The translations under genes and the position numbers were made by a program. A stretch of 58,315 bases of DNA, counting the filler, from Bipalium vagum (lineage: Eukaryota), in assembly GCA_037834085.1 (NCBI GenBank). It is 3 parts of 3 records of this genome, joined end to end, with 100 filler letters (N's around TTAATTAATTAA, not from the genome) between each part and the next. Parts side by side here need not be neighbours in the genome. Positions count along the whole stretch, not along the records: positions 19,159 to 36,947 come from JBBMKC010051118.1; 2 more parts are not named here. One strand, written 5' to 3'. Shown here one piece after another: positions 22,530 to 23,381 of this stretch; positions within the stretch are counted from its first letter, which is position 1; the number at the start of each line of letters is the position of its first letter. Under the pieces are notes generated by a model, which was not told the DNA's origin, did no database searches, and saw nothing but the letters and a program-made list of their open reading frames with translations.

Positions 22530-23381
22530 ATGGATATGGATGATTTATTAAACTTACAGTGTATTTTTGACCAAAATCAAAATGATGAAAAAGAGAAAAT
22601 TAAAAGAGTGAGTTTGGATATGTGGGGTGAAAAGTCCTTTACATGTCATAAAAGAAATATGGCACTTAATAAATTTCTTAAATCTTTTAGGGTATCTATA
22701 TTTGAAATTATAATTGAAACATTAAATGCCATCAACTGTGATATTATGGTTTACGCTGGTACAGCGCTGGCTGTGTGGAGAGATAATGGGGTGATGATAC
22801 CTCACGATCATGATATTGATTTGGCTATTTTAGAAGATGATTTCTTAAAAGTACTTCATGCTTTGAATGACAGGAAAGAAATATATACTGACACCACTTG
22901 TCCTTTTACTCAGAATAAATGGATAAATAATGATGGAACTGAACAGTTTCTATATAATCAGGTTGGTGTTAAACGAATAAAAGTTTATTTTGAAGAATCT
23001 TATCTAAAAAATAAATCACAAGATGATAAAAAGTTTAAAAAATTGTTAAATAATTATGACAAAACGCAATTATTCATTGACATTTTCACTTTACAAAAGA
23101 AAACTGGGTCAGAATTTTATCGCGTTACTTGGAATATTCGAAACACATACGACAACGATAGGAAATGCTTTCCACATGATGTTATATTTCCGTTGAATGA
23201 ATATGTTTTTGAAGGAATCCCTGTGAAGGCTCCTAAAGATTTAAAAAAATATTTAACTATTGAATACGGATATTTAGGGAAGGATGCCAGATATGATTTC
23301 GAAAGTCAGTTATATGTAAAATTATCGGATAGAGAAATGAAATTGTTGCCTCAAAATATCCAGAATTATATGAAATTGTAA
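22530..23381 (+). CDS. LicD/fukutin-family nucleotidyltransferase-fold protein (283 aa, intronless)
   Basis: Longest ORF in the window. It has the motifs AGTALAVWRDNGVMIPHDHDIDLAI (cf. GTLLGAxRxxGxIPWDDDxD), FIDIF, and IFPLNEYVFEGIPVKAPKDLKKYLTIEYG (cf. FPLxxxxFEGxxxxxPxxxxxYLxxxYG). An in-frame stop lies just upstream of the ATG. Confidence 0.9.
   Translation: MDMDDLLNLQCIFDQNQNDEKEKIKRVSLDMWGEKSFTCHKRNMALNKFLKSFRVSIFEIIIETLNAINCDIMVYAGTALAVWRDNGVMIPHDHDIDLAILEDDFLKVLHALNDRKEIYTDTTCPFTQNKWINNDGTEQFLYNQVGVKRIKVYFEESYLKNKSQDDKKFKKLLNNYDKTQLFIDIFTLQKKTGSEFYRVTWNIRNTYDNDRKCFPHDVIFPLNEYVFEGIPVKAPKDLKKYLTIEYGYLGKDARYDFESQLYVKLSDREMKLLPQNIQNYMKL

What the first reader, a model, noticed from the sequence alone, without database searches (positions are those of the whole stretch)
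22530..23381. Intronless, anchor-less LicD-family enzyme in an intron-dense animal genome: candidate horizontal acquisition
Seen: a 283-aa uninterrupted ORF with intact nucleotidyltransferase motifs (GT...DxDxD, DIF), while the neighbouring multi-exon host genes are broken into short exons. It has no N-terminal hydrophobic signal or anchor. Known: animal fukutin and FKRP are type II Golgi membrane proteins, whereas bacterial LicD transfers phosphocholine from CDP-choline. Inference: a soluble, possibly cytosolic phospho-ligand transferase gained from a microbe or virus, or by retroposition, implying an uncharacterised modification pathway. The variant IPHDHDID, in place of IPWDDDxD, may indicate a different substrate.
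Basis: partly seen in the sequence, partly recalled or inferred. Interest (0 to 1): 0.7.

Follow-up and report, generated by a model that had tools for sequence, protein, structure and literature searches.

The report
Anchor-less LicD enzyme, old invertebrate subfamily
This is an intact gene for a relative of the muscular-dystrophy enzyme FKRP that lacks the usual membrane anchor; free-living and parasitic flatworms carry the same anchor-less form, so it is likely an old inherited gene rather than a fresh import from a microbe, and it likely attaches a phosphate-linked group to an unknown target inside the cell.

Summary
In detail: 22530-23381 (+) is an uninterrupted 283-aa ORF, Pfam LicD (E 1.9e-13), with an FKRP catalytic-domain fold (Z 16.7), intact metal-binding aspartates and no hydrophobic anchor. 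It lies between intron-split EPS8-like and PME-1 genes, at the read depth of its flanks. The horizontal-gain reading is not supported at the level of this genome. The protein falls in a well-supported clade (99/96) whose 6 named clusters are all flatworms (Macrostomum, flukes, tapeworms), together with unnamed, probably cnidarian, genes. All 18 members checked lack an anchor, and 11 of 11 related genomic loci are uninterrupted too. Codon use matches host exons. No genuine prokaryotic member and no viral member was found; the viral LicDs recovered branch further out. His in place of Trp before DxDxD is the clade's normal state (17 of 18). What remains interesting is a subfamily, undescribed in the papers searched, of probably cytosolic LicD/FKRP-type phosphotransferases with a patchy spread in animals. 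Donor, acceptor and expression are untested. A very old transfer from protists or giant viruses is not excluded. Interest 0.38.

The parts
22530..23381 (+). Single-exon coding sequence of an anchor-less LicD/FKRP-fold protein, 283 aa
22530..22610 (+). Acidic, low-confidence N-terminal tail (residues 1-27) where fukutin/FKRP carry anchor and stem; conserved start with the 70%-identical P0002
   Evidence: (pLDDT under 50 at 6-19)
22611..22625 (+). Clade signature S-x-D-M-W (residues 28-32)
22758..22820 (+). Nucleotidyltransferase core: G77-T78 and H92-D93-x-D95-x-D97, aligned by profile to the FKRP W-D-x-D-x-D motif (D360, D362, D364)
23079..23087 (+). Third acidic motif D184-I-F, invariant Asp; inferred equivalent of FKRP D416
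   Evidence: equivalence inferred from motif and fold
23262..23300 (+). C-terminal signature E245-Y-G-Y-L-G-K-D-A, the most conserved stretch of the clade
23381..23386 (+). AATAAA overlapping the stop codon; possible polyadenylation signal, common by chance in AT-rich DNA
4477..15979 (-). Upstream neighbour: multi-exon EPS8-like host gene (limits approximate; context only)
   Evidence: EPS8_2nd E 1.7e-6 at 8579-8755
26927..34490 (+). Downstream neighbour: multi-exon PME-1 (protein phosphatase methylesterase) host gene (limits approximate; context only)

Best explanation
The ORF is an intact, host-integrated member of an anchor-less LicD/FKRP-fold subfamily shared with flatworms and probably cnidarians, likely inherited from an old ancestor, and it is predicted to work in the cytosol as a Mg2+-dependent phosphotransferase that would move a phospho-alcohol from a CDP-type donor to a hydroxyl acceptor. 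Shown: ORF, fold match, conserved acidic residues, absence of an anchor, clade membership, host-like codon use. Inferred from FKRP: D93, D95, D97 and D184 hold two metal ions, the acceptor hydroxyl attacks the beta-phosphate, CMP leaves and a phosphodiester forms. Inferred and weaker: without anchor or stem it meets donor and acceptor on the cytosolic side; my first guess for the donor is CDP-choline or a near analogue (CDP-ethanolamine, CMP-aminoethylphosphonate), about even odds, and for the acceptor a glycolipid head group on a cytosolic leaflet, as for Mycoplasma mf1, ahead of a protein or small molecule.
For: Clade of 14 of 26 rows at 99/96, again 14 of 49 rows at 99/96 with 14 viral LicDs added, 17 of 93 and 17 of 52 rows at SH-aLRT 99. 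All 6 clade clusters that carry an organism name are flatworms, and their branching follows the species tree. Query has 14 of 25 clade-diagnostic residues and 0 of 8 sister-clade ones. 0 of 18 members has a 19-residue window at hydropathy 1.6 or more. 11 of 12 metagenome loci are gene-poor animal-type DNA with the gene uninterrupted. Changes against P0002 avoid conserved columns: 5 of 68 against 80 of 215, p 7e-7; dN/dS 0.14-0.26 in 7 of 7 pairs of related loci. Codon use does not differ from host exons (chi-square p 0.26). A 3,728-nt contig spans the ORF and both flanks at depth 21, like neighbours at 14-27. Model pLDDT 88.9; top matches are FKRP, Z 16.7, rmsd 3.2, 179 residues, against Z 10.6 for LnuA. 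Chemistry of the family: PMC6965139, PMC4873967, PMC11982090 (passages).
Against: No activity, localisation or transcript was seen. The query and P0002 branch at the base of the clade rather than inside the flatworms (98/95, only 84/68); placing them with Neodermata alone is rejected (p 0.036), with all flatworms it is not (p 0.12), and with the unnamed sister clade it is borderline (p 0.055). The host animal is not identified. The clade has few members among 1.84 billion representatives, so vertical descent from a cnidarian-bilaterian ancestor needs many losses. Most neighbours in the tree are unnamed. FKRP and fukutin themselves were not rows in the trees. Identity to FKRP is 16-18%, and true nucleotidyltransferases share the fold, so the donor is not fixed by structure. 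Run X1 may be the window's own source, so it is not independent.
Confidence: 0.62

Rival explanations
1. Ancient horizontal origin: the subfamily entered animals from a protist or giant-virus pool, once early or separately in flatworms and cnidarians, and has been inherited since. The enzyme would work as in the best explanation.
For: Patchy animal spread (mammals have only FKTN and FKRP, PMC4873967 passage). Coding region uninterrupted in the query and 11 of 11 related loci. The wider anchor-less group holds a foraminiferan protein and giant-virus genes, one beside an NCLDV capsid gene. Viral structure matches are giant-virus LicDs.
Against: No viral or genuine prokaryotic sequence lies in or next to the clade: best viral score 58 bits among 101 viral ORFs scored, against 136-435 for near-full-length members; three direct viral scans and the phage search found nothing; the single GTDB hit is host-like DNA. 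FKRP also has one coding exon. Loss explains patchiness equally well.
Confidence: 0.2
2. Recent acquisition by this lineage from a bacterium or virus, or a recent retrocopy.
For: Intronless ORF among intron-split genes; basal, long-branch position in the clade; the query lacks the splice acceptor seen just upstream of the start in 10 of 10 related loci examined.
Against: Best named hits are flatworms; host-like codon use; 70%-identical relative under purifying selection; forced grouping with bacterial-type or small virus-like LicDs rejected. No poly-A tract or flanking direct repeat beyond chance-level AT-rich matches.
Confidence: 0.05
3. It has the LicD fold but acts as a true nucleotidyltransferase (NMP from NTP onto a small molecule or protein hydroxyl), like ANT(2'') or LnuA, or as a CDP-alcohol hydrolase that controls donor pools.
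For: Compact, stem-less, soluble build like LnuA and ANT(2'') (Z 10.4-10.6). FKRP crystals cleaved CDP-ribitol without acceptor (PMC6965139, section 3 part 3).
Against: Sequence and structure are clearly closer to LicD/FKRP; it has Asp at the FKRP D360 position where ANT(2'') has His (PMC6965139); every characterised LicD member in the papers read is a phosphotransferase.
Confidence: 0.1
4. Contaminant or assembly chimera from a microbe.
For: Only one run holds the stretch and it may be the source of the assembly.
Against: One contig runs through the ORF into non-coding flanks at host depth with no differences; composition and codon use match the host; orthologues are annotated on flatworm scaffolds up to 234 Mb.
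Confidence: 0.02

Closest known systems
FKRP (fukutin-related protein), PDB 6KAL/6KAM
   Same: Catalytic-domain fold (Z 16.7, model 29-281 on chain 300-491), DxDxD motif aligned by profile, single coding exon.
   Different: No type II membrane anchor, no stem domain (needed by FKRP for acceptor binding), 16-18% identity, His for Trp before the first Asp, about 283 instead of about 495 residues.
Bacterial LicD phosphocholine transferases and Mycoplasma fermentans mf1 (PF04991)
   Same: Same Pfam family, stand-alone catalytic domain, acidic motif; mf1 transfers phosphocholine from CDP-choline to a glycolipid (PMC11982090).
   Different: Distant in sequence (bacterial-type hits only at E 1e-4 to 1e-8), branch apart in every tree, no lic operon context; donor untested here.
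Unnamed flatworm proteins: Fasciolopsis KAA0183702.1, Schistosoma mekongi KAK4470103.1, Macrostomum PAA92632.1, Dibothriocephalus VDN10085.1, Dicrocoelium CAH8527204.1, Sparganum BHF58219.1
   Same: Same clade, same signatures, no anchor, 31-39% identity.
   Different: Most carry a 20-35 residue insert after the DxDxD helix; none has a tested function; KAA0183702.1 is named X-prolyl aminopeptidase though Pfam shows only LicD.
Giant-virus and protist anchor-less LicD proteins (e.g. Fadolivirus A0A7D3QTP0, Bolivina EP01084_P013919)
   Same: Fold, no anchor, often His at the Trp position and a YGYLG-like C-terminal motif.
   Different: About 200-240 aa, 18-38% identity over partial matches, outside the clade and its sister group.

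Membership tests
LicD/FKTN/FKRP family (PF04991) | Pfam score above the curated cut-off | tested here: met
   51.5 bits against 22.6
LicD/FKTN/FKRP family (PF04991) | NTase-fold core closest to FKRP catalytic domain | tested here: met
   Foldseek E 3e-7; VIA Z 16.7, rmsd 3.2, 179 aligned
LicD/FKTN/FKRP family (PF04991) | Glycine motif plus metal-binding aspartates (FKRP D360, D362, D364, D416) | tested here: met
   G77-T78, D93, D95, D97 aligned to FKRP; D184 invariant in 14 of 14, its equivalence to D416 inferred
LicD/FKTN/FKRP family (PF04991) | Transfer of a phospho-alcohol or phospho-sugar from an NDP donor | not testable with these tools
   needs an enzyme assay
Fukutin / FKRP orthologues | N-terminal type II membrane anchor | tested here: not met
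   hydropathy at most 1.32; 0 of 18 clade members anchored; no AG between the upstream in-frame stop and the ATG
Fukutin / FKRP orthologues | Stem domain before the catalytic domain | tested here: not met
   only about 28 residues precede the part aligned to FKRP 300-491; Pfam finds no other domain
Fukutin / FKRP orthologues | Groups with FKTN or FKRP in a phylogeny | not tested
   no FKTN or FKRP sequence was among the rows of the trees; profile match to FKRP is weak, E 2e-5
Recent horizontally acquired gene | Nearest relatives are non-animal | tested here: not met
   6 of 6 named clade clusters are flatworms; viral and prokaryotic scans gave no member
Recent horizontally acquired gene | Composition or codon use unlike the host | tested here: not met
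   GC3 0.26 against 0.34; chi-square p 0.26; RSCU rho 0.73 over 586 host codons chosen by eye
Processed retrocopy | Intron-bearing parent gene, poly-A tract, target-site duplication | tested here: inconclusive
   no tract or convincing duplication; related loci lack coding introns too; no whole genome held to look for a parent

The most novel reading that the evidence does not exclude
Flatworms and cnidarians run an unrecognised cytosolic phosphocholine- or phosphonate-tagging pathway through a dedicated soluble LicD enzyme that entered animals long ago from the protist and giant-virus pool; it would be a candidate for the unidentified eukaryotic transferase that puts phosphocholine on cytosolic targets.
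Probability: 0.15. Interest if true: 0.72.

Novelty: new variant of a known kind. Interest (0 to 1): 0.38.

Why it matters
The characterised eukaryotic LicD enzymes named in the papers read (fukutin, FKRP, yeast MNN4) modify glycans of secreted or surface proteins. A conserved anchor-less form points to the same chemistry on the cytosolic side, where no acceptor is known. Reviews state that the enzymes adding phosphocholine and related groups in invertebrates and protists are unresolved (PMC6994554, PMC6149742, passages). A small soluble protein that folds with high confidence is easy to express and screen, and it is present in free-living laboratory flatworms, so the question is directly testable. 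As a case of gene transfer into this genome it does not matter.

Tried and rejected
Upstream anchor exon: the only in-frame acceptor near the start (after codon 10) would cut residues conserved with P0002, and annotated flatworm orthologues start at the same place, so rejected; a transcript would settle it. Expression: no RNA holder listed, no evidence either way. Host identity: the search with a neighbouring exon found nothing and no genome is held. PDB sequence search with the single protein found nothing useful. Atlas look-ups of P0001 and P0017 were not possible; the look-up of P0003 gave LicD clusters whose commonest phyla are Cnidaria (87 members) and Platyhelminthes (57); that P0017 and L001-L011 are cnidarian is inferred from this and from their gene-poor 37-42% GC DNA, not shown. 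Neighbours of four giant-virus relatives (40 of 50 ORFs scanned) held no choline, cytidylyltransferase or phosphonate gene, so no hint on the donor. Homodimer prediction gave no answer (score 0.00). The careful mixture-model tree did not finish; its quick version is. PMC11727788 reports a LicD orthogroup with 19 genes in a rumen fluke and a mean of 2.3 in 17 flatworms, but the supplement row with that number lists other genes, so I could not tell whether it is this subfamily. Ten paper searches found no description of an anchor-less animal LicD clade; the library lacks most subscription journals. AU groups were chosen after earlier trees were seen.

Full report
Observation. Window 22530-23381 (+) is a stop-free frame of 283 codons, the longest in the window; 100 locally shuffled copies of the window gave at most 168. 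Pfam calls it LicD, E 1.9e-13, 51.5 bits. It carries G77-T78, H92-D-x-D-x-D97 and D184-I-F. No 19-residue window exceeds hydropathy 1.32. The neighbours are ordinary animal genes in pieces: an EPS8-like gene on the minus strand upstream and PME-1 downstream, with a 46-nt GT-AG intron. Transposon remnants lie between them.

Is it host DNA? In the one run that holds the stretch, a 3,728-nt contig covers 22052-25779 with no differences at depth 21, like neighbouring unique contigs at 14-27. That run may be the source of the window, so this shows linkage and single-copy depth, not independent occurrence. Codon use of the ORF does not differ from that of nine host exon pieces chosen by eye (586 codons; chi-square p 0.26, RSCU rho 0.73). 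No RNA holder was listed, which says nothing on expression.

Relatives. The word-index search found 6 proteins among 426 candidates, the profile search 14 among 2,870, and the full HMMER scan of 1.84 billion representatives 190 at E up to 0.001, of which 150 were listed. The nearest is P0002, unnamed, 70% identical and of the same length. I looked up names for 26 hits: 1 of 6, 5 of 10 and 1 of 10 clusters carried an organism. Six are flatworms (Fasciolopsis, Schistosoma mekongi, Dicrocoelium, Dibothriocephalus, Spirometra/Sparganum, Macrostomum lignano); the seventh is the foraminiferan Bolivina, outside the clade. The Atlas, queried with the Fasciolopsis protein, returned LicD clusters whose commonest phyla are Cnidaria and Platyhelminthes, then a viral one.

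Trees. Four trees on chosen subsets (93, 52, 26 and 49 rows; fragments and near-duplicates left out) all hold the query in one clade with the flatworm proteins and the P0010/P0017 group: SH-aLRT 99, 99/96. Inside it the named flatworms branch as the species do. The query and P0002 sit at the base, strongly in one tree and weakly in another (98/95, 84/68). AU tests: with all flatworms p 0.12; with Neodermata alone p 0.036; with the unnamed sister clade p 0.055; with a bacterial-type LicD plus P0059 p 0.026; with small virus-like LicDs p 0.0003. The groups were picked after earlier trees, and long branches are in play. The query has 14 of 25 residues diagnostic of the clade and 0 of 8 diagnostic of the sister clade. 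FKRP and fukutin were not in the trees.

Search for a donor lineage. Of 185,579 prokaryote genomes one contig matched; it is 93% identical to the P0017 group, gene-poor, and shares non-coding flanks with metagenome loci, so it is most likely host DNA in a binned genome. That scan used one exact pattern and would miss diverged forms. Viral scans with the query, the clade and the sister clade confirmed none of 9, 14 and 256 pattern matches; GenBank phages gave no match. Scans with more distant groups gave 79 and 31 viral loci; their best ORF scores 58 bits on the clade profile, against 136-435 for near-full-length members, and the 14 best fall outside the clade and its sister.

Gene structure elsewhere. 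Of 12 metagenome loci, 11 are gene-poor DNA of 37-42% GC with the gene uninterrupted over the part held; the twelfth is a weak prokaryote-type match. In 10 of 10 such loci examined, a CAG acceptor lies 4-8 nt before the ATG, in all three frames, which fits an intron in the 5' UTR and not a coding anchor exon. The query has no AG between its upstream in-frame stop and the ATG. Human FKRP also has its whole reading frame in one exon (PMC8327854, passages). So intronless coding is the rule for this subfamily and no mark of recent arrival.

Selection. Differences between the query and P0002 fall at 5 of 68 conserved and 80 of 215 variable columns (p 7e-7). Seven of seven pairs of related loci give dN/dS 0.14-0.26.

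Structure and mechanism. The model has mean pLDDT 88.9 with only residues 6-19 under 50. FKRP entries lead both searches (E 3e-7; Z 16.7, rmsd 3.2, 179 residues), ahead of LnuA and ANT(2'') at Z 10.4-10.6. Giant-virus LicDs match at 12-21% identity. The clade profile aligns its H-D-x-D-x-D to the FKRP W-D-x-D-x-D. In FKRP, D360, D362, D364 and D416 are each essential, two Mg2+ are bound and CMP leaves; the acceptor is held partly by the stem domain (PMC6965139, passages and section 3 part 3). The query keeps the acidic residues and lacks the stem, so the chemistry is likely kept and the acceptor likely differs. LicD proteins transfer the phosphate together with the alcohol, and mammals have only FKTN and FKRP (PMC4873967, passages; family overview PMC2794190, passages). 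Mycoplasma mf1 transfers phosphocholine or phosphoethanolamine to a glycolipid (PMC11982090, passages); LicD-like genes also flank bacterial phosphonate clusters (PMC6697681, passages). The enzymes that add such groups in invertebrates and protists are described as unresolved (PMC6994554; PMC6149742; passages). From this I infer a cytosolic phosphotransferase using CDP-choline or a close analogue; the donor and acceptor are guesses. That CDP-choline is made on the cytosolic side, and that cnidarians are rich in phosphonates, is recalled knowledge.

The motif variant. His before the first Asp occurs in 17 of 18 clade members and in 60 of 130 parsed homologues, against Trp in 48. It marks a large branch of the family, not this gene; whether it alters the donor is untested.

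Literature. Ten searches found no account of this subfamily. A fluke genome paper lists an expanded LicD orthogroup in flatworms (PMC11727788, passages), but its supplement could not be matched; MolluscDB lists a LicD cluster in 18 species (PMC8059625, passages), of unknown anchor status. PMC10476572 (passages) added nothing on flatworm phosphocholine lipids.

Host. Not determined here. Earlier unchecked notes on the same genome call it flatworm-like or planarian; this fits the homologues but the basal position of the gene does not confirm it.

Verdict. A real, conserved, anchor-less LicD/FKRP-type gene of an old invertebrate subfamily; not a recent horizontal gain. The open and testable part is what a soluble version of this enzyme modifies.

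Noticed in passing
L013:3160-4095 (also L124, G001:C572): A contig filed in a bacterial metagenome-assembled genome carries the animal-type gene at 93% identity to the P0017 group with shared non-coding flanks; probably host contamination of that bin.
   Followed up: partly
P0003 (KAA0183702.1): The Fasciolopsis orthologue is named X-prolyl aminopeptidase in NCBI and UniRef but has only a LicD domain.
   Followed up: yes
L001-L011: The probably cnidarian loci fall into two paralogue groups (P0010 type and P0017 type), each with a splice acceptor 4-8 nt before the start codon.
   Followed up: partly
P0005-P0007, P0009, P0011-P0015, P0024, P0031, P0034: An unnamed sister clade of anchor-less LicD proteins of about 250-270 aa, 0 of 17 with a hydrophobic segment; its organisms could not be named.
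   Followed up: partly
window 51567-52957 (-): Multi-exon GST-fold gene of the metaxin/failed-axon-connections type (Pfam GST_N_4 and GST_C_6).
   Followed up: no
window 19464-19772 (+) and 35147-35467 (-): Two related GIY-YIG-like fragments, probably remnants of Penelope-type retroelements; many mariner/Tc1 fragments elsewhere (e.g. 29717-30542, 46851-47234, 55341-56281).
   Followed up: no
L093:9044-10525 and L094:8223-9233: Giant-virus contigs near LicD genes carry a ketol-acid reductoisomerase, an IMPDH/GMP reductase and Bax inhibitor-1 genes.
   Followed up: no
PMC11727788 supplement 1, row OG0000234: The row lists arginine methyltransferases and 6 fluke entries, not the 19 LicD genes that Table 2 gives for that number.
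   Followed up: no
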